Origin: an uncultured bacterium
GTDB taxonomy: Bacteria > GCA-001730085
DNA: 32,000 nt
Assembly: GCA_964565945.1 (NCBI GenBank)
Contig: CAZMGY010000011.1
Span: 1-32,000, forward strand
Direction of reading: 5' to 3'
The notes beneath the pieces were generated by a model. The model was not told the DNA's origin, ran no database searches, and saw only the letters and a list, made by a program, of their open reading frames with translations. The position numbers and the translations under genes are program-made. Of the stretch, positions 1 through 22,286 are shown piece after piece; within the stretch, counting starts at the first letter, position 1, and the number at the start of each line of letters is the position of its first letter.

Positions 1-1461
1 TGTAGGAGTAAAATTAAGATCTTGAGGTTGGTAGTCGAAAAACAGCTCGTCAAGATAAATCAGCGCATCTTGATTGCTAGGGTTGAGGGATTTTTGGAAC
101 TCTCTCCAGTTGGGGATAATTTTTTTCTTGTTTCCTTGAACTTCTCGGAGGAACGTTGTCATTTCAGAGGATTTCAGAAATTTTTGATGAATATCGTACA
201 CGGACAAATGTTGCCGTTGAGCCAAAGTGCGGAGGGTGTAGCCCAATGCATTGAGGATTTGAAGGCGCTCGTCAAGGGCGATCTTTGTGTTGCGAGCTAG
301 CTGAAGTGTGTATGTGACGAGGCCGTCTATCTGTTCTGCTGAGGGGACCACTTTATCACGAGTCTCGGGTTGCCAAACGGTGCTGGGTAATTTGATTGAC
401 AACTTACGGGGCAGATTGATCCGATGATCAGTTTCTGGTTGGATGTTCCATTGTTCGACGGCCACCCCTTGCACCAACAAGGACAAGGTGGATGAAGAAT
501 CCAGATCCGATTTTTTGTTAGCTTGATACAATACGTCGGAAGGTTGAGGGGATGCTTTACGGACTTTTTGATCGCGCTTGGTGGACACACGGGGCTGTAA
601 AAAAACGGTGATGAGTGTTTCGGGAGACATACCAGTTCCCTTGTCGGAAATGGTGAATCCTTGGGCGTTGACGTTGATGTCAATGGCTCCTTCAAAGTTA
701 GGCGAAAATATTTGACCGTTAGCTTGCACCGAGTGAAACCCACTTGTGTCATTGAGCGGGGATCCTTCATAACTAACTTTAACCGTATCTTCGTATTGAA
801 AGTAGTTGGCGAGTGTTTCTCGGATTTCTTGTTGGGCATTGTGATCAAGTGAGGTTGTGACAGTGACGAGTGTTCCCTGGGCAGGGGTATCGTTTGGAAG
901 CTTCTCGGAGGCACCAAAAACCTTGAGTTTGTATTGCAAAATGTCTTGTTTGCGAAAAATAGTTAACAGGCTAGTTGTCTTCTGGTGAGTGGTGAGGTAT
1001 TGAATTTGATCGGTTTCTTCTTGGAGCAGGGAAAAAGAACCCATTGCTCCCATTCCAAACTGGCCGATCACGTTGGCGCTGTAACCTAAATGATCTTTGA
1101 CGGCATCGACAGCGTTGGAAGCAATTTCGCGAGTCGCTGTTCCTGGACCTGAGGCTTGGCCGACATCGTAATTATGGAAATCGACTGGGTCGAAATTTTT
1201 TGTAGGTCCGACGGTTTCGTGTAAATATTTAGAAACGCTTTGGTAGGGGTCGGAATTTCCATGGTGTTGAACGAGTTCCTGGATTGCTTGTGTTTTTTTC
1301 TTTTCAGGAAATAAGCTGAGATAGCGTACGTAAGATGCCACGCTAGCCAAAGGGTGTCCCTCCATTTTAGACAATTGAGTTCCTGGAGCTAAAGCCATTA
1401 GATAAAGTGTATTGAAGAGTTGAAACATAAAAAGGCTAATGGTCAGGAGTCGTACAAACAT
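1..1461 (-). CDS. Partial CDS (N-terminal 487 codons; the 3' end runs off the window start). Hydrophobic-N-terminus protein with GHKL/Hsp90-like ATPase motifs.
   Basis: Absent from the supplied ORF track because it has no stop inside the window. I read all 487 minus-strand codons in the frame ending at nt 1 and found no stop. ATG is at 1461-1459, with an in-frame stop just upstream at 1465-1467. N-terminus is MFVRLLTISLFMFQLFNTLYLMALAPG. Motifs: EIASNAVDAV (1099-1128), GQFGMGAMG (1039-1065), DKGTGM (628-645). Track ORFs 22-300(+), 327-917(-) and 661-852(+) lie inside it in other frames. Confidence 0.7.
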   Translation of the reverse strand, partial: MFVRLLTISLFMFQLFNTLYLMALAPGTQLSKMEGHPLASVASYVRYLSLFPEKKKTQAIQELVQHHGNSDPYQSVSKYLHETVGPTKNFDPVDFHNYDVGQASGPGTATREIASNAVDAVKDHLGYSANVIGQFGMGAMGSFSLLQEETDQIQYLTTHQKTTSLLTIFRKQDILQYKLKVFGASEKLPNDTPAQGTLVTVTTSLDHNAQQEIRETLANYFQYEDTVKVSYEGSPLNDTSGFHSVQANGQIFSPNFEGAIDINVNAQGFTISDKGTGMSPETLITVFLQPRVSTKRDQKVRKASPQPSDVLYQANKKSDLDSSSTLSLLVQGVAVEQWNIQPETDHRINLPRKLSIKLPSTVWQPETRDKVVPSAEQIDGLVTYTLQLARNTKIALDERLQILNALGYTLRTLAQRQHLSVYDIHQKFLKSSEMTTFLREVQGNKKKIIPNWREFQKSLNPSNQDALIYLDELFFDYQPQDLNFTPT

Positions 1462-1613: not shown

Positions 1614-1754
1614 ACACGCTTGTGAACGATAGTTAGGAGGATGCATCTGGTGTGAAAAGGGTCTTTGGGGCTATTCCTGTAGCCGAAGTGGTGGGGGAGG
1701 AGCTTTTGGATCTTCGAAATCTGGGTGATTGGACAAGTAAGGAGAAAAGACATA

Positions 1755-2408
1755 ATGGGCAAAGGTGTGATTTTTGATTTGGATGGAACGTTGATTAATA
1801 GCATTGAAGATTTAGGAACTTCGATGAATGTGGCTTTGGAGGCTTTGGGCTGTCCTGAGCGTTCCTTGGCTTTTTATAAAGGGATCATTGGTGGAGGTGT
1901 TAAGGATTTTACTTGCCAGTCGTTGCCCGAGAATGACCGATCCAACGAGCCCCTTGTTGCTGAGTGCATGTGCATGTTTCAAGAACATTATCAAGATCAT
2001 TGGGCGGACAAAAGTCATTTGTATGAGGGGATTGCAGAGATGCTTGACTATTTTCAAGCTCAAGGAGTGCCGATGAATATTTTGTCCAACAAACCAGATG
2101 CTTTTGTGCAAAATATTGTGAAGCATTATTTTCAGAATTGGAGTTTTGTTTGTGTGTCGGGTGCTGTGGAGAATTTTCTTCCTAAGCCCGATCCCACCTT
2201 GCTCAAACGCATGATGCAAATTATGAATCTAGATGCGCAAGATATGTATTACATTGGAGATACAGAAGTCGATGTGGCTACGGCACGTAATGCTGGTTGT
2301 CTAGCGGTGGCGGTTATGTGGGGGTTTCGCCACGAAGATAGGTTGCGAGCAGCACGTCCAGATTACTGCTTGCAGGAACCTGCTCAACTAAAGGACCTTA
2401 TCGGATAG
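1755..2408 (+). CDS. HAD-superfamily phosphatase (phosphoglycolate phosphatase-like)
   Basis: HAD motifs are present: I FDLDGTL, II ILSNKP, III PKPDP, IV YIGDTEVD. I prefer ATG 1755 (MGKGVIFDLDGT) over the track start 1725 because AAGGAG lies 8-9 nt upstream. Confidence 0.85.
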   Translation: MGKGVIFDLDGTLINSIEDLGTSMNVALEALGCPERSLAFYKGIIGGGVKDFTCQSLPENDRSNEPLVAECMCMFQEHYQDHWADKSHLYEGIAEMLDYFQAQGVPMNILSNKPDAFVQNIVKHYFQNWSFVCVSGAVENFLPKPDPTLLKRMMQIMNLDAQDMYYIGDTEVDVATARNAGCLAVAVMWGFRHEDRLRAARPDYCLQEPAQLKDLIG

Positions 2409-2441: not shown

Positions 2442-2470
2442 TTGACAATCTTTTTGTGATTTTATAAAAT
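2442..2470 (+). promoter_or_regulatory. Near-consensus sigma70 promoter of the imelysin/DUF1111/ATPase operon (TTGACA-17-TAAAAT)
   Basis: TTGACA at 2442-2447, exactly 17-nt spacer, TAAAAT at 2465-2470. RBS AAAGGAGG precedes the ATG at 2519. Confidence 0.55.
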
Positions 2471-2484
2471 GAAAGTAAATTTCA
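2470..2484. promoter_or_regulatory. 15-bp palindromic operator candidate TGAAAGTAAATTTCA (Fur-box-like 7-1-7)
   Basis: Inverted arms TGAAA/TTTCA. By my count it matches 10 of 14 positions of the Fur 7-1-7 motif TGATAATnATTATCA. It is 13/15 identical to the site at 11133-11147. It abuts the -10 hexamer and covers the expected transcription start. Confidence 0.45.
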
Positions 2485-2518
2485 TTTTCATAAATAATTG
2501 ATAAAAGGAGGAACCTCA

Positions 2519-3685
2519 ATGTTGAAACAGGTGATTTTAATGAGTTTTGTGGCATGGACCGGATTAACTGGTGTTGCTCAAGCTCAAGAGAGCACTCAGC
2601 TTAAGCAAGATTTTATTAAGACCTATAGTCGTTTGGTCTACTTGAATTATGCTGATGCCTATAATAAAGCTTTGGATTTGCAAGACTGCATCGAGGCGTT
2701 TTTAAATCGTCCGAACGAAGGAACTTTGGCCGCGGCTCAACAAAGCTGGTTGATGTCGCGTGTGCCTTATGGACAGTCGGAAGTGTTCCGTTTTTATGAA
2801 GGTCCGATTGATTTTGTTGATGAAGTTCGTGGTTTAGAAGGGCCTGAAGGGCGTTTAAACTCATGGCCTCTCGATGAAGCTTATATTGATTATGTGGAAG
2901 GTAATCCCAAAGCTGGTTTGGTTCAAAATACAGCGATGAGCTTGACCAAAGAAACATTATCGGCTAAAAATCAGGAAAATGACGAAGCAGATGTGGCTTT
3001 AGGTTACCATTCGATTGAATTTTTGTTGTGGGGTCAAGATTTGAATGATTTTGGTCCAGGTCAACGCCCTGTGAAAGATTATTTGCTGGGGGACTCCGTG
3101 TGTGAGCGACGACGCACCTATTTACGCTTGGTCACCGAAATTTTGATTGAAGATCTTAAGTTTTTGGTCAATGAATGGGATCCTCAAGGTCGCGACAATT
3201 ATGTGGAACGATTTCTGCTTAAAGATGTCAATGTGGTTTTGGCCGATGTGCTCACGTCTTTGGCTACTATGAGCGGATTTGAACTGTCAGCTGAGCGGAT
3301 GGCAGTGCCCTTAGATAGTGGTGATCCCGAAGATGAACATTCCTGTTTTAGCGACAACACGCATAACGATTTTCTTTTTAATGCTTTAGGTTTGGCGAAT
3401 GTTTATTACGGCACTTATGGCACTTTTGATGGTACGGGCCTTGATCAAATTATTGTGGCGTACAATGCCGATTTGGATCAAATGATTAGAGAAAAATTAA
3501 ATCAAGTGTTTAACCGAATGGGGAAGATTGGGGTTCCGATTGATTATCGTGTCTTAGGTTCTTTTGAAGATAGTCGTGAGCGCCGGGTAATGGAGCAAAC
3601 GATCCAAGCTTTGATGAGCTTAGCTGATTTGTTCAAACAGGCGGGGCCTATTTTGGGTGTTAATGTGGAAATGCGCAGTGAATAG
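2519..3685 (+). CDS. Periplasmic imelysin-like protein (Peptidase_M75 / IrpA-like, EfeO-related)
   Basis: Signal peptide MLKQVILMSFVAWTGLTGVAQAQ. The family-typical HxxE block GYHSIEFLLWGQD is present. I prefer ATG 2519 with its AAAGGAGG RBS over the track start 2498. Confidence 0.8.
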   Translation: MLKQVILMSFVAWTGLTGVAQAQESTQLKQDFIKTYSRLVYLNYADAYNKALDLQDCIEAFLNRPNEGTLAAAQQSWLMSRVPYGQSEVFRFYEGPIDFVDEVRGLEGPEGRLNSWPLDEAYIDYVEGNPKAGLVQNTAMSLTKETLSAKNQENDEADVALGYHSIEFLLWGQDLNDFGPGQRPVKDYLLGDSVCERRRTYLRLVTEILIEDLKFLVNEWDPQGRDNYVERFLLKDVNVVLADVLTSLATMSGFELSAERMAVPLDSGDPEDEHSCFSDNTHNDFLFNALGLANVYYGTYGTFDGTGLDQIIVAYNADLDQMIREKLNQVFNRMGKIGVPIDYRVLGSFEDSRERRVMEQTIQALMSLADLFKQAGPILGVNVEMRSE

Positions 3686-5075
3686 AACGTCCTTTTTGCT
3701 ATTCCTACTCCTATGGGGGGGGCTATGCATTTCAAAAAATTTACAAGCCTTGGACAATAGCGATAAGCGTGACTTTCGCTCTAAATTGATGTCGGGTGGT
3801 GAGACAACCGTGATTAATACGTCGCGCGAGGCTTTTGCAAAGCCAGCGGCTAATTTACCAATGGCTAAGCTGAGGGACTTTACTTTTGGCAACCGTGTGT
3901 TCAACACCAAATGGGTGACGGCACCAGCCTCGGTGAAAAGTTTTGATGGTTTAGGACCTCTTTTTAATCAACGTTCGTGCTCGGCTTGTCATTTTAAGGA
4001 TGGGCGTGGTCGCCCTCCTCTCGAGAATGAAACTGAGATGACATCGATGCTGGTGCGAGTGAGTGTTTGGAATGAAGATGGTACGCAGGCGATTGATCAT
4101 CCTGTTTATGGAAATCAAATCAATGAGCGAGGTATTTTGAATATTAAGGGTGAAGGACGTATTGAAATTACCTATGAAGAAGTGGAAGGTCGTTTTGCCG
4201 ATGGAGAAGTTTATTCTTTGCGTAAACCAACTTATCACTTCAAAGACATGAATTATGGATCCGTAGAAGACGATCTTTTGTTTTCACCACGGGTGGCGCC
4301 TTCAATGTTTGGTTTAGGACTTCTTGAAGCTATTTCGGAAGAAACCATTTTAGCGTTTGTTGATGAAGACGATTGCGATGGTGAGGGCATTTCGGGGCGA
4401 GCCAACTATGTGGAAGATAAGGTTAAAGGTGAAATTCGTTTAGGTCGCTTCGGTTGGAAAGCAAATCAACCCAGCTTGCGCCAACAAAATGCGAAGGCGA
4501 TTATTGGAGATATTGGGATCACCAGTGATTTATTTCCCGATGAAAATGTAACCGCGATACCGAATGCGGAGTTTGTTTCGGGAGGGGCACCTGAACTTTC
4601 AAGCAAGTTTTTGGATAAGCTAACGTTTTACGTTCAAACTTTGGCTGTTCCTGCGCGACGCAAGGTTGGTGACCACCTTGTGCTGAAAGGAGAAGAGATT
4701 TTTAAAAAAGCCAATTGTCACAGTTGTCATAAAGAGACGTTGGTGACAGGTGAGCACGAGGATGTGCCAGAGTTATCGCGACAGACCATTCATCCGTACA
4801 CAGATCTTTTATTGCATGATATGGGCGAAGGTTTAGCTGATGGGCGGCCTGATGGTCAGGCGAATGGACGTGAGTGGCGCACCGCTCCTTTGTGGGGTAT
4901 TGGCTTGACGAAGACCGTTAACAAGCATACTTTTTTTCTGCACGATGGTCGAGCGCGTAATTTGATGGAAGCGCTTTTGTGGCATGGGGGTGAAGCTGAA
5001 GCAGCAAAACAACACGTGCTTCAGCGGGATAAAGATGATCGAACAGCTTTGATGGTGTTTTTAAATTCTCTTTAG
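3657..5075 (+). CDS. Di-haem cytochrome c DUF1111 protein (annotated in databases as thiol oxidoreductase or putative peroxidase)
   Basis: Two CxxCH haem-binding motifs (CSACH, CHSCH). N-terminal signal-like segment NRTSFLLFLLLWGGLCIS. The length (472 aa) is typical of DUF1111. The start is GTG 3657 or ATG 3663; either overlaps the imelysin stop at 3685. Confidence 0.8.
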   Translation: MLMWKCAVNRTSFLLFLLLWGGLCISKNLQALDNSDKRDFRSKLMSGGETTVINTSREAFAKPAANLPMAKLRDFTFGNRVFNTKWVTAPASVKSFDGLGPLFNQRSCSACHFKDGRGRPPLENETEMTSMLVRVSVWNEDGTQAIDHPVYGNQINERGILNIKGEGRIEITYEEVEGRFADGEVYSLRKPTYHFKDMNYGSVEDDLLFSPRVAPSMFGLGLLEAISEETILAFVDEDDCDGEGISGRANYVEDKVKGEIRLGRFGWKANQPSLRQQNAKAIIGDIGITSDLFPDENVTAIPNAEFVSGGAPELSSKFLDKLTFYVQTLAVPARRKVGDHLVLKGEEIFKKANCHSCHKETLVTGEHEDVPELSRQTIHPYTDLLLHDMGEGLADGRPDGQANGREWRTAPLWGIGLTKTVNKHTFFLHDGRARNLMEALLWHGGEAEAAKQHVLQRDKDDRTALMVFLNSL

Positions 5076-5080
5076 ATTAA

Positions 5081-8000
5081 ATGGTAAAAAGGATGAAACA
5101 TCTTGTGAAGAAATATTCGTGGGTATTAGTGCAAGTTATTTTTTGTTTTATTAGTGGGACTGTCTTACCTAGTTCGGTGGCATGGGGCTTAGCACCTCAA
5201 TCTCAGGTAAACTCTTTGGCACAAGTTGATTGGAAAAATGTGCCTAGGAACGAATCTCAAAGTTCTTTCATAACAGCTCTTGATAAATCTGAAGAAAGTC
5301 TAGATAAGGATCGTTCTGTTAAGGAATTCACCTTTGAAGAAAAAATCGCCGACCTTTCTCGAGGGCAGCAATTTTTTTTGAAGTTGCCTGTCGAATACCT
5401 GTATTTGTTTTCGATTATTTTTGTTTTGATTTATATTTTTAGTGGAGGTAATTTTTATAGCTTTATTTTGTTAGGAGTGGGTTTGTTACCATTTTTGCAT
5501 TGGGTGTGGCTTAAAATTGAGCCTTATTGGGCCAAAACATTAGCCAAATCCTTGAATTGGTTGCGCAACAAAGAAGCCTTTTTAGTTTTTTTTGCCGCGT
5601 TGTTATTGGTGATTGAAATTATGGGTCACATTGGGATTGTCTTAGGACCTTTTTCGACCGTCTTTTTTGTGATTGGCTTGGTGGGTGTGATTCTGTTTGC
5701 TTTACCCATGATTTACAACGGGTTTTTGGTCTTAATGTACTTTTTTGAAAAACTATTTCGTGGTGAAAATCCGTTTGAAGAACTCAATGAAGAGTTCACC
5801 AAAGGTTTGGCATTCTTTTTGTTGATTTTTCTTCCTTTGGTGACAGGGGCGTTTCCTTTAGATTTGGTTGCGGTGGCTTTGATTGCCGTGGTGATTCAGT
5901 TAGCTGAAGTTTTGGAAGAGCATATGATTAAGATGAAAGATAAAGCCGTTGAAGATCTCAAGAGAGAAATTCCCGATCAAGTGCGGGTGGTGCGTTGGGG
6001 AGATAAGGTGTTTGAGACCGATCAATTGCCGACGGTGCCTCTCGAACGAGTGGAAAAAGCTTTGGCCAAGGGGACTTCTATTGTTGTACGTGTGTTAAGA
6101 AATGAGCCTGTTCCTAAAATCGATGGTTACGTTGCGGGCTTTGAAGAGGCCACACGGGTCGATAAATCGGCATTTAATGGGGAGTCGAAAGCTGTGCCCC
6201 TTAAAGAATATGACTTTCTCGAGGGCGGCTCCTTGGTCTTGAATGGCTATGTTGATATTCGTGTTGATAAAGCTGGCGACGAAACCGAAATTGGTAAAAT
6301 TGAAGCATCTCTCACAGAGTTTGATCCGAAAGGATTTTCCGAGGTGAAAGCTTTGTCGGATAAAGTGATCAAATACTTTGGTTTAGGTTTGATTTTGATT
6401 GCTTTAGTAGGTTTTGTTGTGAGTGGTTCGTGGATGGTGACGATTGCGGCCTTGGCGGCTGTCTGTGCCTGTCCCTTCTTGGTGGGGATTCCCTTGGCTT
6501 TTGTGGCGGCTCGTCAAAATATGGCTACCAAAAATATTGCGATTCGCAAGAATGAATCCTTTTCTCCGATCAATGTTTTGGTTCTTGACAAAACCGACAC
6601 CATTACGGTGAACAAAAAAATGAAACTCGATCCTAAGCAGCCCGTATGGATGTTTGATGCCAACGAAGATCCGAAGGTCTTGTTGTATCAGGCTGCGGTG
6701 GTAGAGCGAGAGCTAGAAGAAAGCAATCCTTATGCGCGTGTGATTATGAATCAAGCTTTGGAGGATGGATGGACGCGTGCTCAGATTAACAAAGAATTAC
6801 TCACGAGTTTTGATGCAAAATCGAGAGGAGCGTGGGGCTATGTGCAGGGGAGACGTTTGTTTTTGGGGAATATGAAACAGCTACGGCAAGTGACTCAAGG
6901 AGATATTGTTCAAGAAAATTTGATTCAAGACAAGGTGGATTCGTTTTCGGCCGAAGGGATTACACCCATTGTGGCGTACGATTTAGAAGCAGGCAAACCT
7001 CTCGGAGTTTTACGCGTGACACAGCATTTGCGTGAAGGAGTGGATCAGCTTATCAATAATTTTTTGGACATGGGTAAATTGACCTGGTATCAAAAAATCT
7101 TCAATGTTTTGTCTAAAAAAATGTTTCATTTTGAACCGTATCCTAAGAATATCCTTCCGATGGTGGCCTCGGGAGATACCAAAAACAGTGTTAAATATGT
7201 CTTGAAGCAAACACCGATTAAGTTCGGTATGGCTGAGGTAACACCACGACAAAAAACGATTATTGTCTATTGGCTACAAAATGATGGTAATGTCGATAAA
7301 ATTAAACAAGAGCTACAAGGACGTCAGGAGCCACTTGTTTTTAATTGGCACGAATTTAAGAAAAAGTTTCTTAATGACGATGAAGGTCGTGCTTTTTTGA
7401 AAAAGTATCGTAAACTAGAAAAATCGCTTAAAGCGGGTGAGGATAAGCCTGTTATTAAATCGAATCCTAACCGGGTTGGTATGATTGGTGATGGAACCAA
7501 CGACACAATGGCGCTCAAGATGGCTGATGTTGGCTTTTCCTTTGAGTCGGCCACTAAATTTTCTAAATCAGCAGCAGATGTTTTGTTAGGTGATGGGGAC
7601 GATGTGTTTAAAAATTTAAATACCTTTCTCAAAATGCAGCGTCGCACCTATACGACAATCTTTATTAATATTTTTATTGTCGCGGTGATTTGGAATTTAA
7701 TGATGGTGAGTTTGATTTTTGCGGGCATTCTTGAGCCTCAAATTGCGGCCTTGCTTCATTCCATGAATACTGTTTTGGTTATACTGCTGTCTTTGGCTCT
7801 TATGGCTAAGCCTGGTACCCATTTTAAAGAGTTGTTTTTTGGTGGAAGTTCTTCTTCGAAAGAAAAGGAAGACTCTGCCAAACCTAAACCTAAGAAAGCT
7901 ATTGTGGCTTCAGATGAGGGTGATGAACAGCATAAACACAAGAATCCTCATGCCAGTTGTAAGTTGTGTCAGAAAATTGTGGCCAAACCAAAACCCGAGG

Positions 8001-8674
8001 ACAGAGGTGGTTTGAATCAAAAAATCTTGCAAGATGTTTTGGATCGCTGGGAAAGTTTTTCTGCAGTGGAACGAATGAATGGAGTTTTTGTTGATAATTA
8101 TGCCTTGGGTTTGGATCAAAGGGTATCGCTCGAACTTCTTGTGAAGTGGGTGCATAACAATCGTCGTCGAATCACAATTCAAAAACCCCGTTTTTTGCCT
8201 GAATTTAGTTCGTGGCATGTTTCGGATGAATGTTATGAGATTGAGGTAAATCCATCTTATCAAACTTGGCCTGAATATGAAGCTTTGTTGCAGTCTCAGA
8301 TTGTACGTAATGTGTTAGAAATGTATCTGACTGACCGTTTGCGTTTACAGAGAATAGATGCTGACAAGATTCGTTTAAGGTACTCCCAACAGTGGTTTGC
8401 TTGGCTTTATGAGTACCAGGTGATTATGATGGCTGTTTTATATGGAGATCAGTTAGACCAAATACGTCAAGCGTTTAAGCGTTATGAACAAAAGATACAT
8501 CCTTGGCAAGAGCACTCTACTGTTCTAAATGATGTGTTTAGCCGTACATTTGAGCAATTACAACAGGACAGAGCAATGTATGATATAAAAGGTGCTGAGA
8601 TTCAAAATTGGATTCGAAGATCTAATATATACAATCAAACAAGGTTTAATCTTAAAATACTTGTGGCTGCGTAA
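5081..8674 (+). CDS. P1B-type (heavy-metal) P-type ATPase-like fusion protein, 1197 aa, with atypical core motifs and extra N- and C-terminal regions
   Basis: Ordered P1B landmarks are all present. A-domain: FNGESKAVPL (6176-6187). TM motif: CACPFLVGIPLA (6464-). Phosphorylation site: LDKTDTIT (6587-6601). N-domain: ESNPYARVI (6725-6730). Also VASGDTKNS (7169-7177), AEVTPRQKTIIVYWLQNDG, GMIGDGTNDTMALKMADVGFSF (7487-7504), then two C-terminal hydrophobic helices. It starts 5 nt after the DUF1111 stop. Confidence 0.8.
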   Translation: MVKRMKHLVKKYSWVLVQVIFCFISGTVLPSSVAWGLAPQSQVNSLAQVDWKNVPRNESQSSFITALDKSEESLDKDRSVKEFTFEEKIADLSRGQQFFLKLPVEYLYLFSIIFVLIYIFSGGNFYSFILLGVGLLPFLHWVWLKIEPYWAKTLAKSLNWLRNKEAFLVFFAALLLVIEIMGHIGIVLGPFSTVFFVIGLVGVILFALPMIYNGFLVLMYFFEKLFRGENPFEELNEEFTKGLAFFLLIFLPLVTGAFPLDLVAVALIAVVIQLAEVLEEHMIKMKDKAVEDLKREIPDQVRVVRWGDKVFETDQLPTVPLERVEKALAKGTSIVVRVLRNEPVPKIDGYVAGFEEATRVDKSAFNGESKAVPLKEYDFLEGGSLVLNGYVDIRVDKAGDETEIGKIEASLTEFDPKGFSEVKALSDKVIKYFGLGLILIALVGFVVSGSWMVTIAALAAVCACPFLVGIPLAFVAARQNMATKNIAIRKNESFSPINVLVLDKTDTITVNKKMKLDPKQPVWMFDANEDPKVLLYQAAVVERELEESNPYARVIMNQALEDGWTRAQINKELLTSFDAKSRGAWGYVQGRRLFLGNMKQLRQVTQGDIVQENLIQDKVDSFSAEGITPIVAYDLEAGKPLGVLRVTQHLREGVDQLINNFLDMGKLTWYQKIFNVLSKKMFHFEPYPKNILPMVASGDTKNSVKYVLKQTPIKFGMAEVTPRQKTIIVYWLQNDGNVDKIKQELQGRQEPLVFNWHEFKKKFLNDDEGRAFLKKYRKLEKSLKAGEDKPVIKSNPNRVGMIGDGTNDTMALKMADVGFSFESATKFSKSAADVLLGDGDDVFKNLNTFLKMQRRTYTTIFINIFIVAVIWNLMMVSLIFAGILEPQIAALLHSMNTVLVILLSLALMAKPGTHFKELFFGGSSSSKEKEDSAKPKPKKAIVASDEGDEQHKHKNPHASCKLCQKIVAKPKPEDRGGLNQKILQDVLDRWESFSAVERMNGVFVDNYALGLDQRVSLELLVKWVHNNRRRITIQKPRFLPEFSSWHVSDECYEIEVNPSYQTWPEYEALLQSQIVRNVLEMYLTDRLRLQRIDADKIRLRYSQQWFAWLYEYQVIMMAVLYGDQLDQIRQAFKRYEQKIHPWQEHSTVLNDVFSRTFEQLQQDRAMYDIKGAEIQNWIRRSNIYNQTRFNLKILVAA

Positions 8675-9191
8675 TTGCACTTTTGGTAACTTTTCCCCTT
8701 GTTGCCTGGCAGCAAAATGTTATCAAACATTTGCAAGAGGAAGACTCAGAGTCTGCGTTATCAATAAAAAAAACAGGTCGAAAATGCGACAGGTTTTGAA
8801 ATTGGCATGGGACTCACCATGGTTGTGCAAAATGTATGGGGTGTCAATAGACTAGATTTATGTTAGCACTGATTCACTGTACATTTTGTCTTGATTTTAA
8901 GCAGTATGTGTCCGCTGTTTGGGTGCATAGTAGGGTCTTGAGGTGAAGTTTTCCAGAGATCTTGCTTATAAATCACATAAAAAGACTTTATCCTAATATG
9001 TCCTAAGCGAAGCCTGTTAAGGGTTTTCGTGTGATAAGAGTTCTCGTTTTTTGTGTGCTTCGATCGTAAATATAGTTAAATTGACGAGCTTATTAGGGTG
9101 TGTTTCAAAAAAAAACGATTTGGGTTTGGGAATAAATGATGTAAAATAGAAACTGGTTTTAGGGAATCTGTCACAATAAGGAAGAGATTTT

Positions 9192-11131: not shown

Positions 11132-11160
11132 TTGAAAATGAATTTCAAGTTCTGTATAGT
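11132..11160 (+). promoter_or_regulatory. Candidate sigma70 promoter of the Fe(III) ABC operon (TTGAAA-17-TATAGT)
   Basis: TTGAAA at 11132-11137, 17-nt spacer, TATAGT at 11155-11160. RBS AAGGAGGGG precedes the ATG at 11215. Confidence 0.5.
11133..11147. promoter_or_regulatory. 15-bp palindromic operator candidate TGAAAATGAATTTCA (Fur-box-like 7-1-7)
   Basis: By my count it matches 11 of 14 positions of TGATAATnATTATCA. It is 13/15 identical to 2470-2484. It overlaps the -35 hexamer and spacer of the promoter. Confidence 0.5.
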
Positions 11161-11214
11161 GGATTTATTTTTTAGGATAAATCCTTGTGGATTAAATGAA
11201 GTAAAGGAGGGGAT

Positions 11215-12201
11215 ATGATGCGGTTAGGACAGAGGCTCTTGGTGTGTATGGTATTGGTGAGTTCATGGGCGCATGCGGAGGAATTGACGATTTATTCGGG
11301 ACGTTCCGAAAAATTAGTGGGGCCCATTCTTAAGCAATTTGAAGAAGAAACGGGAGTGAAGTTAAATATTCGTTATGGCAAAACGCCTCAACTTGCAGCA
11401 GCCATTATCGAAGAAGGACGTCGTTCCCCAGCCGATATTTTTTATGCCCAAGATGGGGGTGCTTTAGGTGCTCTGGCCGAAGAATCTTTGCTAACAGCGA
11501 TTAGTGATAATCTGATTGGTCAAGTCGATGTACGTTTTGTTTCTCCAACGGGCAGCTGGATTGGCATCACTGGACGTGCTCGCACGGTCGATTACAACAC
11601 TGAGGCTGTCAATCTCGATGAGTTACCCAATTCGATTTGGGGGTTTTTGGACAAACGTTGGTCACAAGGAAGGATTGGTTGGGCCCCTTTGAATAGTTCG
11701 TTTCAATCTTTTGTGGCGGCTCTTTTGGTGACGCAGGGCGAAGAGCGCACGCGTTTATGGTTGCGTGGAATTCTAGCCAATCAGCCACAAGTTTATCCTA
11801 AAAACACACCAATTGTGGCGGCTTTAGGGCGGGGAGAAATTGAAGTTGGTTTTGTGAATAATTACTATTTGCATCGCTTTTTGGCCAAAAACCCTAACTT
11901 TCCAGTGGCTCATCACTACACCAAAGGAGACGCTGGTTCGATGATTAACATTGCTGGGATGGGAATTCTACGTTCGTCGAACAAAACAGAGTTGGCGGAA
12001 AAGTTGATTCAATATTTGCTATCGGCCAAAGCCCAAACTTATTTTGCCGAAAATACCTTTGAATATCCCTTAGTGAAAGGTGTGAATGTGCAAGGTCCTC
12101 AGAAAACATTGCAAGATGTGCCAGCACCTGATTTGGATTTGAGTAACTTGAAACGTATTCGCGAAGCGGTTCGAATTCTCAAAGACGAAAGGGTGCTCTA
12201 G
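11215..12201 (+). CDS. Fe(III) ABC transporter periplasmic substrate-binding protein (FbpA/AfuA/FutA family)
   Basis: Signal peptide MMRLGQRLLVCMVLVSSWAHA. The family-typical N-terminal block ELTIYSGRSEKLVGPILKQFEEETGVKLNIRYG and SPADIFYAQD are present. Confidence 0.85.
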   Translation: MMRLGQRLLVCMVLVSSWAHAEELTIYSGRSEKLVGPILKQFEEETGVKLNIRYGKTPQLAAAIIEEGRRSPADIFYAQDGGALGALAEESLLTAISDNLIGQVDVRFVSPTGSWIGITGRARTVDYNTEAVNLDELPNSIWGFLDKRWSQGRIGWAPLNSSFQSFVAALLVTQGEERTRLWLRGILANQPQVYPKNTPIVAALGRGEIEVGFVNNYYLHRFLAKNPNFPVAHHYTKGDAGSMINIAGMGILRSSNKTELAEKLIQYLLSAKAQTYFAENTFEYPLVKGVNVQGPQKTLQDVPAPDLDLSNLKRIREAVRILKDERVL

Positions 12202-12206
12202 ATTTT

Positions 12207-13745
12207 ATGATTCAGCGTTGCTATGGGGGCTTGTTGAGCTTTATCCTGCTTTTGCCATTGGTCTATGTGGCGATCCATGTCTATCAATTTGGTTGGCAGT
12301 GGGGCGATTTTTTAGGGCAGCCAGATTTATGGCGAGCTGTCCAAGGATCGGTGGTTTTGGTGTTTGCAGTGGTATTACTGTCGTGTGTTTTGGCTTTGCC
12401 AGCGGCTCTCTTGCTCGAAAAAACCGATCTGCCTTGGAGATCTTTTTGGAATATGTGCTTTGTGTTGCCAATGGCAATACCTAGTTTTGCTGGGAGCTTT
12501 GCTTTGATTTCAGCCTTAGGCCCTAAGGGAAGCTTGGTGGCCAACTTACTGAAGCTGGAGTCCCTACCCTCGATTTATGGGCTTCCAGGAGCCGTTCTAG
12601 GAATTTCTTTGTTTACGTTTCCTTATATTTTTTTAGCGGCTCAGGTGGCTTTACGGTCAATGAGTCCTAACCTTGATGAGGTCGCGTTAACGATGGGGGT
12701 GAAACGCCGTTATTTGGTGTTACGCCTATGGTTGCCTTATCTTAAAAAACCTGTGCTCGCGGGGGTTCTTCTGGTTGGATTTTATGCCTTGAGTGATTTT
12801 GGAACACCGACGTTGATGCGTTATACCAGTTTAACGCAAGAGATTTATTTAGCTTACAGTGCTTATTTTGACCGGCAATACGCGGCTGTTCTTAATGTTA
12901 TTTTGGTTGGGATTGCTTTGGTGTTTCTCTGGTTCGAACGGCGTTACCGAGGTCGAACACAACATTTGGAATGTGATCGCGATATGCGCAGAAAGGCCTA
13001 TCGTATTTCGTTAGGGCGTTACCGATATTTGGCGTGGCTGTGGTGTGGCCTGGTGGTGATGCTTTCTTTAGTGATTCCAGTGGGTGTGATGCTGTATTGG
13101 TTAAGTCAGGGGGTGGAGCGCGTATGTGTTTTGAGTGTGTTGCAGCGTTTATTGCCTTCGATGGGTGTGGCCGCTGGTGTGGCTTGTTTGATTACGTGTG
13201 TGATGTATCCAGTCGCCTATTGGGTTCAGCGTAAAGACGGTTACTGGAAACATGTGGAGGGATGCGTTTATGTGGGGTCAGCCATTCCAGGTTTGGTGAT
13301 TGCTTTGGCACTTATTTTTTTAAGCCGTTTTTTGCCAGCCTCCTTCTATCAGTCGTATGGCCTTTTGCTGGTGGGTTATTTGATTTTGTTTGGCGTAAAA
13401 AGCTTTGTGGTGTTGCGTTCGGCGGTGGCTGAAGTTTCAGTGCGCTTGGAAGAAGCGGCGCGCACGCTTGGTGTTAATGAATGGGGCGCTTTTAAGTATG
13501 TGACCTTTCCTTTGACCCGAACAGCTTTGGGAGCATCGTTTATTTTGATTTTTGTGGCGGTGATCAAAGAGTTACCGATCACCTTGTTGTTGGCACCGAT
13601 GGGCTATCAAAGTTTAGCCACCCATATATGGATGAGCACGGAAGAAGCTTTTTTTGCCGAAGCTGCTTTGTCATCTTTGCTCTTGCTCGGGATGGCTGGA
13701 TTGGCTATGATGATGATTTTAAGACAACAAAAGAGGACAGCATGA
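12207..13745 (+). CDS. Fe(III) ABC transporter permease, duplicated two-module type (FbpB/AfuB-like)
   Basis: 512 aa and highly hydrophobic. It has two repeated permease modules, each with an EAA-like loop (LDEVALTMGV..., LEEAARTLGV...). It starts 5 nt after the substrate-binding protein stop. Confidence 0.85.
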   Translation: MIQRCYGGLLSFILLLPLVYVAIHVYQFGWQWGDFLGQPDLWRAVQGSVVLVFAVVLLSCVLALPAALLLEKTDLPWRSFWNMCFVLPMAIPSFAGSFALISALGPKGSLVANLLKLESLPSIYGLPGAVLGISLFTFPYIFLAAQVALRSMSPNLDEVALTMGVKRRYLVLRLWLPYLKKPVLAGVLLVGFYALSDFGTPTLMRYTSLTQEIYLAYSAYFDRQYAAVLNVILVGIALVFLWFERRYRGRTQHLECDRDMRRKAYRISLGRYRYLAWLWCGLVVMLSLVIPVGVMLYWLSQGVERVCVLSVLQRLLPSMGVAAGVACLITCVMYPVAYWVQRKDGYWKHVEGCVYVGSAIPGLVIALALIFLSRFLPASFYQSYGLLLVGYLILFGVKSFVVLRSAVAEVSVRLEEAARTLGVNEWGAFKYVTFPLTRTALGASFILIFVAVIKELPITLLLAPMGYQSLATHIWMSTEEAFFAEAALSSLLLLGMAGLAMMMILRQQKRTA

Positions 13746-14389
13746 GTTCTTATTTAAACGTAAGTTCACTTCAAATCACTTACTCGTCGGGGTGTTGTGT
13801 AGGACCCTATGCCTTTGAGGTGGTGCAAGGAGAGCTCGTGGCTGTGGTTGGTCCGAGTGGGGCAGGTAAGACCACTTTGTTGCGTATCTTGGCTGGGTTG
13901 GTTCAACCCGATCATGGTCAGGTTATTTTGGATCAAAATGTCTTGAGTGATGATAAAACTTTTTTGCCACCGAATAAGCGCCGGGTTGGTTTGGTGTTTC
14001 AAGATTACGTCCTGTTTCCGCATTTAACTGTCGAACAAAATATTGCCTTTGCCTTTAAAGTGATTGGACAGCCTTTTTCAGCCGAAGAGATAGAGATGCG
14101 ACTCCACAAGGTGCGACTTAAGGGCATGCTAAAGCGCTACCCTCACGAATTATCGGGAGGGCAGCAACAACGTGTTGCCTTGATTCGGGCTTTAGCTGCT
14201 GAACCAAAACTCCTCTTGATGGATGAGCCTTTTGCCAGTCTTGATGCCCAACTGCGAGATGATGTGATTCTCGAAACAATGGACACCTTACGTCAGTTGA
14301 AAATGACGAGCCTGATTGTGACCCATAATCCCCAGGAGCTTGAAGCTCATGTGGATCGCGTTTTAGATCTCAGTTGTGAAAACTTTTAG
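13742..14389 (+). CDS. ABC transporter ATP-binding protein (FbpC-like)
   Basis: Walker A GPSGAGKTT, signature LSGGQQQRV, Walker B LLLMDEPF. I prefer ATG 13742 (MSSYLNV), which forms an ATGA overlap with the permease stop. The track start 13628 lies inside the permease gene. Confidence 0.85.
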   Translation: MSSYLNVSSLQITYSSGCCVGPYAFEVVQGELVAVVGPSGAGKTTLLRILAGLVQPDHGQVILDQNVLSDDKTFLPPNKRRVGLVFQDYVLFPHLTVEQNIAFAFKVIGQPFSAEEIEMRLHKVRLKGMLKRYPHELSGGQQQRVALIRALAAEPKLLLMDEPFASLDAQLRDDVILETMDTLRQLKMTSLIVTHNPQELEAHVDRVLDLSCENF

Positions 14390-15587: not shown

Positions 15588-16075
15588 AACGCCACATCAT
15601 TATGGATGGCTACAATGTGATGCACCGTTGGGCGAATGAACGCTTTATGTTACTGTCTGCTGGTCTCGAACAGAAACGCGATGCCTTTGTGAAGCAATTG
15701 CAGGATTATCAGGACTTGCAAGGCGAAGAACTCACGATTGTGTTTGATGGTTATTCGGGGCGTGACAAGGGTTCGAGTGTTAAGAGGGGGCAAACGAAAG
15801 CTTCGCCACGGCAGGTGAAAGTGCTTTTCTCGAAAACTAAGCAAAGCGCTGATACGGTGATTGAGGCGATGGTGGCTCAAGATAAGCACCCGCAAAGCTT
15901 GCTTGTGGTGACAGCCGATCGACAAATCGCTCAATTGGTGCGAGGATATGGGGCGCAGGTGTGGAGTCCTGAATTTTTAGAACAAGATTTGAAACAGGTG
16001 TTAGCAAGTATGCGTAAGGATTTAGACTTTCAAGTGCTTAAACCCAAAGGATGGCGAGTGGAGGATCGATTATGA
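15584..16075 (+). CDS. NYN-domain protein, YacP/Rae1-like (PIN-like ribonuclease fold)
   Basis: Ordered acidic blocks [21 protein letters not shown] and VVTADRQI, as in YacP-like NYN proteins. ATGA overlap with the ruvB stop. Confidence 0.7.
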
Positions 16076-16854
16076 ATAAAATTTTTTATTTGCTCGTAAT
16101 CAATGTGATCGCTGTGCTTGGTTTGTTGTTTTATCTGAACGTTCAGGTGTACTTTAAGGTTAAATCAAATGAAACTCAAATGGGGTTTTCGCAAAAGGTG
16201 GTGCAAGAGGTGCAGCAGTCTAAAATCGTGCTTGAAGAAACCTTAATTAAACACAAAGGGGAAATTACCTTCAAAGAAAAGATGATCGATAAAGAAAAGG
16301 AAAAGTCGATTGAACTTTCGCGCAAACTTTCGGAAAAAGTGAATGAAACCCTTATATTGAAAGATGCGTTGCGTAAGAAAAAGACCATTGAAGAAATGTT
16401 TAACGAAGATCGTATAAAATTTAAAAAGGAGAAAAAAACTTTGCAAGCCGAAGTCGATCAGTTGAAAAAAGATAATAAGGGTCTTAAGGAGCGGATTGAG
16501 CAGCTGAAAAAAGCTCCAGTTTTGACTGGATTGAGCAGTCCGACCCAATTGTCGGGTGTAGGGGCCAGTATGGGGGCATCGGCGTCTAAAAAAACACTAA
16601 AAATCGAAAAACCTAAGCGAGATGCAGGTTTTGTTTTGAGCAAAAATCCCGACTATAACTTTGTGGTAGTTGCTCTGGGCTCCGAAGATGGTATATTTAT
16701 GGGACAGCGTTTGAATGTATTGAGGGAGGGGCAAATTATTGGCAAAGTTAGGGTTGAGAAGATTTTTGACAAAATGAGTTCAGCGGTGATTCTCCAAGAC
16801 ACCTTTCGTGACAAAAAAATCGCGCAGGGTGATAATGTTAGGGTTTTTCGCTAA
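16072..16854 (+). CDS. Membrane-anchored coiled-coil protein with a small C-terminal beta-rich domain (function unknown)
   Basis: I prefer ATG 16072 ([22 protein letters not shown], an N-terminal TM helix), which forms an ATGA overlap with the NYN stop. A long K/E-rich heptad-like stretch follows. C-terminus is FVVVALGSEDGIFMGQRLNVLREGQIIGKVRVEKI...GDNVRVF. Confidence 0.65.
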   Translation: MNKIFYLLVINVIAVLGLLFYLNVQVYFKVKSNETQMGFSQKVVQEVQQSKIVLEETLIKHKGEITFKEKMIDKEKEKSIELSRKLSEKVNETLILKDALRKKKTIEEMFNEDRIKFKKEKKTLQAEVDQLKKDNKGLKERIEQLKKAPVLTGLSSPTQLSGVGASMGASASKKTLKIEKPKRDAGFVLSKNPDYNFVVVALGSEDGIFMGQRLNVLREGQIIGKVRVEKIFDKMSSAVILQDTFRDKKIAQGDNVRVFR

Positions 16855-16856
16855 GT

Positions 16857-16886
16857 TTGACAAACTGAATTATCATATGCTATACA
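16857..16886 (+). promoter_or_regulatory. Candidate promoter (TTGACA-18-TGcTATACA, extended -10)
   Basis: TTGACA at 16857-16862, TG at 16878-16879, TATACA at 16881-16886, ending 34 nt upstream of the ATG at 16920. Confidence 0.4.
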
Positions 16887-16919
16887 CATTCATTATCGTG
16901 AAAATGGGAGAATATTAAG

Positions 16920-21750: not shown

Positions 21751-22227
21751 ATGAAGAAGTTATTTTTAGCGTCGGTATTGGCTGTCTTGTCCCCATCATT
21801 GTGGGCTGTTAGTTTAGAACAATCTGCTTCGACTATGCAAGAAGCGCTTAGACATCAATCGGACTACGCATATCATCAAGCCGATGTTGTCGTTGAACCC
21901 GAAGTGCAAGAAGATGTCCTTGTTGTGCTTAATCCTATTGCTCAACGTTTGGCTTTTTTCACCAATCACAGTCATTTAGTGTCTCATCAAGCCAGCAATT
22001 ATTTTCGACAACGCTACGAAGGTTATACGGTGACTCCAGAGACCGATTGGTCTTTGCGATCGCTTCCTTCTTTGTATACTTTTGAGGCTTATGGCTTGGA
22101 AAACTTCTTACCCGTTTTGTCTCCTTGGTCTTTTTCTTGGGTAGATGTGGATATGTCTCGTGACTATATTCATTTGAATCTAAGAAATAGCTATCAGATC
22201 CAACGCGCTGTTTTGAAATTTTCTTAA
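21751..22227 (+). CDS. Small secreted hypothetical protein (158 aa)
   Basis: Signal peptide MKKLFLASVLAVLSPSLWAV. RBS GGAGGG. I recognise no motif. Confidence 0.6.
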   Translation: MKKLFLASVLAVLSPSLWAVSLEQSASTMQEALRHQSDYAYHQADVVVEPEVQEDVLVVLNPIAQRLAFFTNHSHLVSHQASNYFRQRYEGYTVTPETDWSLRSLPSLYTFEAYGLENFLPVLSPWSFSWVDVDMSRDYIHLNLRNSYQIQRAVLKFS

Positions 22228-22277
22228 ACGGTTCGTTCTCCAAACTCTTGGGAAAACTTTATTCTTGACGGTAGCTG

Positions 22278-22286
22278 TGCTACAAT
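22278..22286 (+). promoter_or_regulatory. Candidate extended -10 element TGcTACAAT
   Basis: TG at 22278-22279 and TACAAT at 22281-22286. There is no good -35 at 17 nt. It ends 88 nt upstream of the ATG at 22374. Confidence 0.4.

What the first reader, a model, noticed from the sequence alone, without database searches (positions are those of the whole stretch)
2442..8674. Periplasmic imelysin + di-haem DUF1111 operon ends in a P1B-ATPase-like fusion rather than a permease
Seen in the sequence: one near-consensus promoter with an overlapping palindrome drives three co-directional ORFs. They are packed tightly: imelysin and DUF1111 overlap by 23-29 nt, and the DUF1111-to-ATPase gap is 5 nt.

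Established knowledge: imelysin (Peptidase_M75 fold, HxxE block) and DUF1111 di-haem proteins commonly pair in iron-responsive periplasmic modules. The M75 domain is the EfeO-type metal-binding domain of EfeUOB, where the membrane partner is the permease EfeU.

Inference: the membrane partner here is a divergent P1B-type ATPase. Two readings are possible. (a) It is an ATP-energised variant of an Efe-like iron capture pathway. (b) Because characterised P1B pumps export from the cytoplasm, it may be a dedicated metallation pump loading the periplasmic imelysin or di-haem proteins, as CcoI-type pumps do for cuproenzymes. I do not recognise this three-gene architecture as a described system.
Basis: partly seen in the sequence, partly recalled or inferred. 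Interest (0 to 1): 0.78.

Follow-up and report, generated by a model that had tools for sequence, protein, structure and literature searches.

The report
Iron-box operon with an odd metal pump
Three tightly packed genes (two exported iron-associated proteins and a very unusual heavy-metal pump) probably share one promoter with a Fur-like control site, but the grouping is a local gene-order accident in one host-associated bacterial lineage, not a conserved new transport system.

Summary
A near-consensus promoter at 2442-2470 precedes three co-directional genes: imelysin (PF09375), di-haem DHOR/DUF1111 (PF06537) and a 1197-aa P1B-like ATPase.

- Among 1.84 billion representative proteins the ATPase has four close relatives, all in PVC/Chlamydiae-related bacteria. 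None of them lies next to imelysin or DHOR.
- Its orthologue in a Bugula neritina symbiont shows the same order: HAD gene, promoter, ATPase. The cassette is missing there.
- The closest DHOR homologues sit in stand-alone imelysin-DHOR pairs with no pump nearby.

So the cassette lies between the pump's own promoter and the pump gene.

New here: a 15-bp Fur-box-like palindrome, TGAAAnT-n-AnTTTCA, overlaps that promoter. It occurs once more in the window, on the promoter of an FbpA-type ferric-iron ABC importer (0.12 sites expected by chance). It also occurs at the orthologous pump promoter. The three genes are therefore probably co-regulated members of a metal regulon, likely iron. They are not a dedicated three-part transporter.

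The pump keeps all catalytic residues but fits no curated P1B subfamily. It is a new divergent variant, substrate unknown.

The parts
1725..2408 (+). HAD-family phosphatase gene (phosphoglycolate-phosphatase-like, below the curated cut-off). It is the conserved upstream neighbour of the ATPase promoter.
   Evidence: PF13419, E=1.4e-29. 43% identical to the HAD gene directly upstream of the orthologous ATPase in the Bugula symbiont locus L002.
2442..2470 (+). Sigma-70-type promoter TTGACA-17-TAAAAT.
   Evidence: Matches 11 of 12 positions. One of only two such sites in 32 kb. L002 has TTGACA at 9782 in the same position after its HAD gene.
2470..2484 (.). Operator-like 7-1-7 inverted repeat TGAAAGT-A-AATTTCA. 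It overlaps the last base of the -10 hexamer and the probable transcription start, and lies inside the larger palindrome 2459-2495.
   Evidence: The pattern TGAAA-N5-TTTCA occurs exactly twice in the window, against 0.12 expected; no shuffle of 100 reached 2. It occurs once in L002, at the orthologous promoter. It matches 10 of 14 positions of the B. subtilis Fur 7-1-7 consensus (my comparison; the consensus is cited in PMC6212828).
2519..3685 (+). Imelysin-like protein (Peptidase_M75) with a Sec-type signal peptide and an intact GxHxxE motif. The longest ORF starts at 2498.
   Evidence: PF09375, 212 bits. GYHSIE at nt 3002-3019. RBS AAGGAGG at 2505-2511. Gene callers give 388 aa.
3657..5075 (+). 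Di-haem DHOR/DUF1111 protein with a signal peptide and two CxxCH motifs. It overlaps the imelysin stop by 8-29 nt, depending on the start codon, so translational coupling is probable.
   Evidence: PF06537, 375 bits. CSACH at nt 3978-3992 and CHSCH at nt 4716-4730. Junction sequence.
5081..8674 (+). Divergent P1B-type ATPase, 1197 aa (1189 aa if it starts at GTG 5105). N-terminal leader: hydrophobic helix followed by GLAPQS. Two extra TM helices precede MA/MB. Core motifs: NGES, CACP, DKTDT, SGDT, GDGTND. M5 has WN and M6 has HSMNT. Two clade-specific insertions in the P domain. Unknown 270-aa C-terminal extension containing HKHKNPHASCKLC.
11132..11160 (+). fbpA promoter TTGAAA-17-TATAGT. The second copy of the 7-1-7 box (TGAAAAT-G-AATTTCA, 11133-11147) overlaps the -35 hexamer and the spacer.
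11215..14389 (+). FbpABC-type ferric-iron ABC importer: binding protein 11215..12201, double-domain permease 12207..13745, ATPase 13628..14389. It is the probable inner-membrane route for periplasmic iron and a probable member of the same regulon.
   Evidence: The binding protein scores 282 bits (E=5.5e-83) against the ferric iron-binding protein 7w3w, and also matches FbpA/HitA structures. Pfam hits.

Best explanation
Window 2442-8674 is most likely a single transcription unit in a PVC/Chlamydiae-related, probably host-associated bacterium.

How it is built:
- A strong sigma-70 promoter is overlapped by a Fur-box-like 7-1-7 operator.
- It drives (1) a Sec-exported imelysin-like protein.
- It drives (2) a translationally coupled, Sec-exported di-haem DHOR.
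- It drives (3) a lineage-specific, highly divergent P1B-type ATPase.

How it arose:
- The promoter and operator belonged to the ATPase gene in the ancestor.
- The imelysin-DHOR pair is a self-contained two-gene periplasmic cassette that now lies between that promoter and the ATPase ORF.
- This came about either by insertion here or by loss in the sister lineage.

How it is controlled and what it does:
- The same operator sits on the promoter of the neighbouring fbpABC ferric-iron importer.
- The three genes are therefore co-regulated members of a metal regulon, most likely iron. They are not three parts of one transporter.
- The ATPase is expected to work like other P1B pumps: ATP-driven, phospho-aspartate-dependent export of a transition-metal cation from cytoplasm to periplasm. 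Its substrate is unknown.
- Iron handled by imelysin/DHOR would enter through FbpABC.

Shown: gene content, motifs, non-conservation of the adjacency, conservation of the promoter and box, and the second box at fbpA.
Inferred: co-transcription, the identity of the regulator, the direction of transport and the substrate.
For: Gene content and promoter:
- Domains and motifs.
- Promoter.
- No internal + strand promoter between 2971 and 7397.

The ATPase clade is tiny:
- Five representatives among 1.84 billion proteins. The score drops from 288 to 122 bits at the next hit.
- Two relatives come from 'PVC group bacterium (ex Bugula neritina AB1)'.

Contexts of the relatives:
- P0073: HAD, ATPase, FtsH.
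- P0074 and P0076: purL, ATPase, purM.
- P0075: UbiA, ATPase, SurE.

Orthologous promoter:
- The HAD genes are 43% identical.
- TTGACA plus the 11-mer TTCATTTTCAT is unique in each locus, at the same relative place.
- L002 holds no trace of imelysin or DHOR.

The cassette stands alone elsewhere:
- Contexts.
- Those loci have GC 0.48-0.52 and GC skew near 0. The window lineage has GC 0.35-0.43 and skew about 0.2.

The box:
- TGAAA-N5-TTTCA occurs at 2470 and 11133 only, against 0.12 expected.
- It occurs at the L002 ATPase promoter.
- The second window site overlaps the -35 of a 10/12 promoter for fbpA.
- FbpA identity.

Catalytic residues are invariant in a 71-sequence alignment: E368, D503, K504, T507, T509, G698, D699, K725, D804, N807 and D808.

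Structure:
- AF2 model of the core, residues 150-920, has pLDDT mostly 80-97.
- The best Foldseek matches are CopA, ATP7B, ZntA and CadA.
- A profile of the clade scores Cu pumps highest: 141 bits against 89 for CadA, 73 for KdpB and 68 for ZntA.

Literature:
- Imelysin operons are Fur-regulated and lack EfeU (PMC3143127).
- Fur-controlled P1B Fe(II) pumps FrvA and PfeT are known (PMC6212828).
Against: - No transcript data exist, so co-transcription is inferred from spacing alone.
- Only four relatives of the ATPase have context, from two or three organisms. 'Not conserved' therefore rests on a small sample.
- No close relative of the window organism could be found that carries the pump.
- The box matches the Fur consensus at only 10-11 of 14 positions. 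No fur gene lies in the window, and the regulator could be a different protein sensing something else.
- A box over the -10 implies repression when the metal is plentiful. That is the wrong logic for a simple detoxifying exporter.
- In this protein DKTGT reads DKTDT, and the whole clade lacks the HP motif. Activity is therefore not guaranteed.
- Insertion of the cassette cannot be told apart from its loss. Within the window the cassette's GC skew (about 0.2) and GC content do not stand out.
Confidence: 0.5

Rival explanations
1. Dedicated metallation pump. The ATPase exports a metal that loads the periplasmic imelysin or DHOR, as CcoI/CopA2-type pumps do for cuproenzymes. The three genes would then form one functional module.
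For: - Tight packing under one promoter.
- An operator shared with an iron importer.
- The clade is nearest to Cu pumps.
- M75 domains bind Cu2+, Zn2+ and Fe in vitro (PMC9174327).
Against: - The adjacency is absent from all four relatives.
- The cassette works without a pump in other organisms (PMC3143127).
- The DHOR cofactor is haem c, which P1B pumps do not deliver (established knowledge).
- The orthologous pump carries the same promoter and box with no cassette to serve.
Confidence: 0.12
2. ATP-energised uptake. The ATPase imports the metal captured by imelysin/DHOR and so replaces EfeU.
For: - A repressor-type box shared with fbpA fits an acquisition gene.
- An unusual N-terminal leader and extra TM helices.
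Against: - Characterised P1B pumps export (established knowledge).
- FbpABC is present 2.5 kb away.
- The adjacency is not conserved.
- The architecture and catalytic motifs are those of ordinary exporters.
Confidence: 0.05
3. Neutral juxtaposition. The cassette happens to lie upstream of an unrelated pump gene, the palindrome is not a metal-responsive operator, and sharing a transcript has no functional meaning.
For: - The block upstream of RuvB is rearranged in relatives.
- The match to the Fur consensus is only moderate.
- With up to 2 mismatches the box is not enriched: 7 sites against 5.55 expected.
Against: - There are two perfect sites in 32 kb against 0.12 expected, and both lie on promoters.
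- The box is conserved at the orthologous promoter, even though the proteins are only about 42% identical.
Confidence: 0.25
4. The ATPase-like protein no longer pumps metals. It would be a degenerate or re-purposed P-type ATPase.
For: - DKTDT replaces DKTGT, NGES replaces TGES, and the M4 Pro is displaced (CACP).
- The HP motif is lost throughout the clade.
- It scores below every curated P1B cut-off.
- Large insertions and a C-terminal extension match no known family.
Against: - All residues needed for phosphorylation and dephosphorylation are invariant.
- The orthologue has canonical DKTGT and TGES.
- The ORF is intact in several independent assemblies.
- There are two or three conserved paralogues per genome.
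Confidence: 0.08

Closest known systems
P1B-1 Cu(I)-ATPases (CopA of A. fulgidus and L. pneumophila; ATP7B)
   Same: - Best sequence, profile and fold matches.
- MA/MB plus M1-M6 core with A, P and N domains.
- TGE, DKT.T, TGD and GDGxND residues conserved.
- An invariant Cys in M4 and an Asn in M5.
   Different: - Only 20-25% identity; below the TIGR01525 and TIGR01511 cut-offs.
- No HMA domain and no HP motif.
- M4 reads CACP; M5 reads WN instead of YN; M6 reads HxxNT instead of MxxSS.
- An N-terminal leader, two extra TM helices, two P-domain insertions and a long C-terminal extension.
Fur-controlled Fe(II)-efflux P1B4 pumps (L. monocytogenes FrvA, B. subtilis PfeT)
   Same: A P1B ATPase whose promoter carries a Fur-type box (here putative). 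It sits in the context of iron homeostasis genes (PMC6212828).
   Different: - P1B4 pumps have six TM helices, SPC in M4 and HEGxT in M6 (from my own knowledge).
- The window protein has the MA/MB-type architecture and different ligands.
- No sequence affinity to that subgroup was seen.
Fur-regulated imelysin clusters such as P. aeruginosa PA4370-PA4373 and V. cholerae VC1264-VC1266
   Same: An imelysin with GxHxxE next to a DUF1111 di-haem protein. Both are exported, there is no EfeU-type permease, and regulation is linked to iron (PMC3143127).
   Different: - There is no second, IPPA-type imelysin gene.
- Here the pair is followed by, and probably co-transcribed with, a P1B-type ATPase.
EfeUOB ferrous-iron transporter
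   Same: It contains an M75 (imelysin-fold) periplasmic component.
   Different: - No EfeU/FTR1 permease was found among the window ORFs scanned.
- No cupredoxin domain.
- The haem protein is a c-type di-haem DHOR, not a DyP peroxidase.

Membership tests
P-type ATPase superfamily | Phosphorylated Asp in DKTGT, a TGE loop, TGD, the GDGxND hinge, and curated score cut-offs. | tested here: met
   - D503, K504, T507, T509, E368, G698, D699, K725, D804, N807 and D808 are invariant in a 71-sequence alignment.
- PF00122 scores 59.4 against a cut-off of 28.1.
- TIGR01494 scores 77.3 against a cut-off of 62.3.
- The local variant reads DKTDT.
P1B (heavy-metal) ATPases | Score above the curated subfamily cut-offs (TIGR01525, TIGR01511, TIGR01512). 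| tested here: not met
   193 against 346, 135 against 397 and 139 against 313 bits respectively.
P1B (heavy-metal) ATPases | MA/MB plus M1-M6 architecture, with solved P1B pumps as the closest folds. | tested here: met
   - AF2 core pLDDT is mostly 80-97.
- The top Foldseek hits are 4bbj, 7r0g, ATP7B, ZntA and CadA, all ahead of KdpB.
- The profile search gives the same order.
P1B (heavy-metal) ATPases | CPx-type motif (CPC, CPH, SPC or TPC) in M4. | tested here: inconclusive
   - C464 is invariant in the clade.
- The window protein and its orthologue read C-A-C-P.
- Paralogues P0074 and P0076 read CPC; P0075 reads SSCP.
- The Pro is displaced by two residues in the window protein.
P1B (heavy-metal) ATPases | HP motif (SEHPL) in the nucleotide-binding domain. 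| tested here: not met
   His is replaced by N549 here and is absent from all five clade members. E542, G581, G583 and G596 are kept.
P1B-1 copper pumps, including CcoI/FixI metallation pumps | M5 YN and M6 MxxSS ligands; for CcoI, linkage to cbb3 oxidase genes. | tested here: not met
   M5 reads W871-N872 and M6 reads H893-S-M-N-T. No oxidase genes were found in the window.
EfeUOB | EfeU (FTR1) permease, EfeO with cupredoxin plus M75 domains, and a DyP-type EfeB. | tested here: not met
   Only an M75-only protein is present. The haem protein is PF06537. No FTR1 or DyP hit was found in any scanned ORF.
Imelysin/DUF1111 periplasmic iron-associated cassette | An imelysin with GxHxxE adjacent to a DUF1111 protein with two CxxCH motifs, both exported. 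| tested here: met
   Motifs. Signal peptides were judged by eye. The same two-gene arrangement is found in the closest homologues.
Fur regulon | A Fur-box operator bound by an iron-loaded Fur protein, with derepression on iron limitation. | not testable with these tools
   Sequence evidence only. The 7-1-7 palindrome matches the B. subtilis consensus at 10-11 of 14 positions, at two promoters in the window and at the orthologous promoter. No fur gene lies in the window.

The most novel reading that the evidence does not exclude
The five-member clade would be a new P1B subfamily with these features: an N-terminal leader, a displaced M4 Pro, WN/HxxNT ligands and no HP motif. Its 'A' paralogue would be an iron-limitation-induced pump that truly cooperates with periplasmic imelysin/DHOR and FbpABC. 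It could do so by exporting a metal that these proteins need, or by moving metal inward. That would make this operon the first ATP-driven variant of an imelysin-type metal-handling pathway.
Probability: 0.1. Interest if true: 0.75.

Novelty: new variant of a known kind. Interest (0 to 1): 0.4.

Why it matters
- The three-gene 'system' is better read as a regulatory grouping than as a machine. This guards against over-interpreting gene adjacency.
- Two things remain of real interest.
- First, there is a very rare, strongly divergent branch of heavy-metal pumps, with two or three paralogues per genome, in a poorly known host-associated PVC lineage. Its ligand set and domain additions match no described subfamily.
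- Second, a conserved Fur-like box ties one of these pumps to ferric-iron import. This gives a simple handle for defining the metal regulon of organisms that cannot be cultured.

Tried and rejected
- The word-index homologue search with the ATPase found only the protein itself plus generic P1B pumps at about 24% identity.
- The genome-contig scan with the clade alignment picked generic patterns (GDGxND).
- The metagenome scan failed with five clade-specific segments because no stretch was conserved enough. With two segments it found no relatives.
- The C-terminal extension (aa about 980-1197) is shared at 21% identity with paralogue P0074. It has no Pfam match, and its AF2 model has pLDDT 49, too low to search with.
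- The N-terminal 190 aa have no Pfam match.
- tblastn found no remnants of imelysin or DHOR in the orthologous leader.
- I first searched for the palindrome as AAATGAAA-N5-TTTCATTT. That pattern was not significant and missed the fbpA site. The shorter core TGAAA-N5-TTTCA is the significant one.
- Literature searches for the Bugula symbiont genome gave nothing useful. The P1B classification paper PMC4119550 is not held.
- I considered ArgR, CRP/FNR and DtxR-type boxes for the palindrome, from memory. Their half-sites or spacing do not fit, so I rejected them. None was tested.

Full report
OBSERVATION

The window carries three co-directional ORFs at 2498..3685, 3657..5075 and 5081..8674.

Profile searches identify them as follows:
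- Imelysin: PF09375, 212 bits.
- Di-haem DHOR/DUF1111: PF06537, 375 bits.
- A P-type ATPase: PF00122, 59 bits; generic P-type model TIGR01494, 77 bits against a cut-off of 62.
- The ATPase's best subfamily is heavy-metal TIGR01525, at 193 bits. That is well below the cut-off of 346.

The imelysin has an intact GxHxxE motif (GYHSIE, aa 169-174). The DHOR has two CxxCH motifs.

The promoter TTGACA-17-TAAAAT at 2442-2470 matches 11 of 12 positions.
- It is one of only two such sites in the 32 kb, against 0.61 expected.
- An inverted repeat overlaps it.
- No + strand promoter-like site lies between 2971 and 7397, and terminator-like hits are no more numerous than in shuffles.

Start codons need small corrections.
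- The imelysin probably starts at 2519, behind AAGGAGG.
- The DHOR may start at 3678. That gives the 8-nt overlap seen in homologous cassettes.
- The ATPase may start at GTG 5105, giving a 29-nt gap.

THE ORGANISM

GC is 0.43. GC skew is about +0.2 along the whole window, and nearly all genes are on one strand.
- The closest named RuvB relatives, at 66% identity, are 'Chlamydiae bacterium' MAGs.
- Two relatives of the ATPase come from 'PVC group bacterium (ex Bugula neritina AB1)'.
- The same sequence turns up in several independent assemblies.

The window is ordinary chromosome. It carries RuvB, GreA, Mdh, SucCD and a tRNA-Phe.

THE ATPASE

An exhaustive search of 1.84 billion representative proteins finds only four close relatives: P0073 (42% identity), P0074, P0075 and P0076. 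The score then drops from 288 to 122 bits, where ordinary P1B pumps begin.

These relatives are paralogues spread over two or three organisms.
- P0073 and P0076 lie in the Bugula symbiont genome.
- P0074 occurs in the same samples as the window organism, on DNA of matching composition.

A 71-sequence alignment shows every residue needed for P-type chemistry to be invariant: E368, D503, K504, T507, T509, G698, D699, K725, D804, N807 and D808.

The AF2 model is confident for residues 150-920.
- It matches CopA, ATP7B, ZntA and CadA ahead of KdpB.
- A profile of the clade scores copper pumps highest.

The protein departs from every described P1B subgroup in these ways:
- The HP motif is lost.
- M4 reads CACP, with the Pro displaced. 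Paralogues P0074 and P0076 keep CPC.
- M5 reads WN and M6 reads HxxNT.
- DKTGT reads DKTDT in this protein only.
- There is an N-terminal hydrophobic leader followed by an invariant L-[AS]-P-x-[ST].
- Two extra TM helices precede MA.
- The P domain has two clade-specific insertions.
- A 270-aa C-terminal extension has no detectable relatives.

It works like a P1B pump, but it is not a member of any curated subfamily.

IS THE ADJACENCY MEANINGFUL?

None of the four relatives lies next to imelysin or DHOR:
- P0073: HAD, ATPase, FtsH.
- P0074 and P0076: purL, ATPase, purM.
- P0075: UbiA, ATPase, SurE.

The P0073 locus is orthologous to the window.
- Its upstream HAD gene is 43% identical to the window's.
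- The same TTGACA promoter follows it.
- Just after the -10 comes the 11-mer TTCATTTTCAT, which is unique in each locus.
- That locus holds no trace of imelysin or DHOR.

The closest DHOR homologues (58-64% identity) point the same way.
- They lie in stand-alone imelysin-DHOR pairs with unrelated flanks and no ATPase.
- Their DNA has a quite different composition.

Relatives of the window organism keep gene order downstream of RuvB but not upstream of it.

The published survey of imelysins notes that such operons are Fur-regulated and lack the EfeU permease (PMC3143127).

The cassette therefore sits between the pump's own promoter and the pump gene. The arrangement is lineage-specific. I cannot tell insertion here from loss in the Bugula lineage. 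The cassette's GC skew matches the rest of the window, so any insertion is not recent.

A SHARED OPERATOR

The core of the palindrome is TGAAAGT-A-AATTTCA at 2470-2484. This is a 7-1-7 inverted repeat.
- The pattern TGAAA-N5-TTTCA occurs exactly twice in the window, against 0.12 expected. No shuffle of 100 reached two.
- The second site, 11133-11147, overlaps the -35 of a 10/12 promoter, 68 nt upstream of the next gene's ATG.
- That gene's product matches solved ferric iron-binding proteins (FbpA/HitA) at 282 bits.
- FbpB- and FbpC-like genes follow it.
- The pattern also occurs once in the 23-kb Bugula locus, exactly at the orthologous ATPase promoter.
- It is absent from the loci of the other paralogues.

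All three sites fit TGAAAnT-n-AnTTTCA. They match the B. subtilis Fur 7-1-7 consensus TGATAAT-n-ATTATCA at 10-11 of 14 positions. That comparison is mine; the consensus is as used in PMC6212828.

Fur-controlled P1B iron pumps are known (FrvA and PfeT; PMC6212828).

This supports co-regulation of the pump, the cassette and the ferric-iron importer by one regulator, plausibly a metal sensor. The regulator itself is not identified.

MECHANISM

- Shown: gene content, motifs, promoter and box conservation, and non-conservation of the adjacency.
- Inferred: there is one transcript. It is repressed by a Fur-family protein when iron is plentiful. The exported imelysin and DHOR act in the periplasm as in other bacteria. 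Iron enters through FbpABC. The ATPase exports an unidentified transition metal.

The ligand set is Cys, Asn, His and Asn/Thr, which is harder than that of Cu(I) pumps. Together with the iron context this makes a divalent metal such as Fe(II) a reasonable guess. It is only a guess.

The metallation-pump and import readings remain possible but lack support from gene-order conservation.

VERDICT

- The proposed three-component system is not supported as a conserved entity.
- What is new is a very rare, divergent P1B clade and a conserved Fur-like box linking one of its members to iron-uptake genes.
- Interest is moderate.

Noticed in passing
window 1-1461 (-), with promoter at 1539-1511 (-): A long ORF runs off the left edge (at least 487 aa, ATG at 1461), so the ORF listing does not report it. 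The listed ORFs 22..300 (+) and 327..917 (-) are probably spurious. It has a weak GHKL-ATPase hit (PF13589, E=4e-4, below cut-off). It has its own 11/12 promoter, TTGACA-17-TACAAT, followed by the palindrome TATAGCTATA.
   Followed up: partly
window 5180-5200 (ATPase aa 34-40), window about 1380 (-), and the N-termini of P0073-P0076: A leader motif, a hydrophobic helix followed by [WYFLM][GA]-L-[AS]-P-x-[ST], is shared by all five ATPase clade members and by the GHKL-like ORF. A six-frame regex scan of about 120 kb (window, L002, L003, L008, L009) finds it in ORFs of at least 150 aa only at these six N-termini. It looks like a signal peptide whose cleavage site is followed by Pro. Its role is unknown.
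   Followed up: partly
window 5081-5930 (ATPase aa 1-283): Topology puzzle. The N-terminal helix (aa 15-36) plus a hairpin (aa 102-146) precede MA/MB. Helix parity and the positive-inside rule cannot both hold, so the side on which residues 38-100 lie is unresolved.
   Followed up: partly
window 11132-14389: An FbpABC-type ferric-iron ABC importer. Its promoter carries the second copy of the 7-1-7 box.
   Followed up: yes
L003 9672-9722; L003 and L009 at 10001 onward: Paralogues P0074 and P0076 sit between purL and purM in both organisms. They keep canonical CPC and carry 9-10 His (plus 6 Cys in P0076) between the leader and the first TM hairpin. The P0074 promoter (TTGACA-17-TATTAT) is followed by a different perfect palindrome, TAAATAGAAA-TAT-TTTCTATTTA.
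   Followed up: partly
window 8000-8674 (ATPase aa about 980-1197): The C-terminal extension is shared only with P0074, at 21% identity. It has no Pfam or PDB relative, and the AF2 model is unusable. It is preceded by HKHKNPHASCKLC at aa 951-963. All five clade members end in Ala (LVAA, EVSA, LFVA, ERFA, GDSA).
   Followed up: partly
whole window: GC skew is about +0.2 throughout, and almost all genes are on the + strand. Related loci L002, L003, L008, L009, L098 and L100 show the same. This looks like a compositional signature of the lineage.
   Followed up: no
window 8675-9191: A 517-nt gap between the ATPase and the dienelactone-hydrolase gene has no called gene, no Rfam match and no recognisable terminator.
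   Followed up: no
window 16051-18548, 21751-22838: Four ORFs (267, 542, 158 and 166 aa) match no curated family at threshold; only the 267-aa one has a weak sub-cutoff NCBIfam hit (TIGR03752, E=8.5e-4). Gene order here is conserved in relatives L098 and L100, so they are probably real lineage-specific genes.
   Followed up: no
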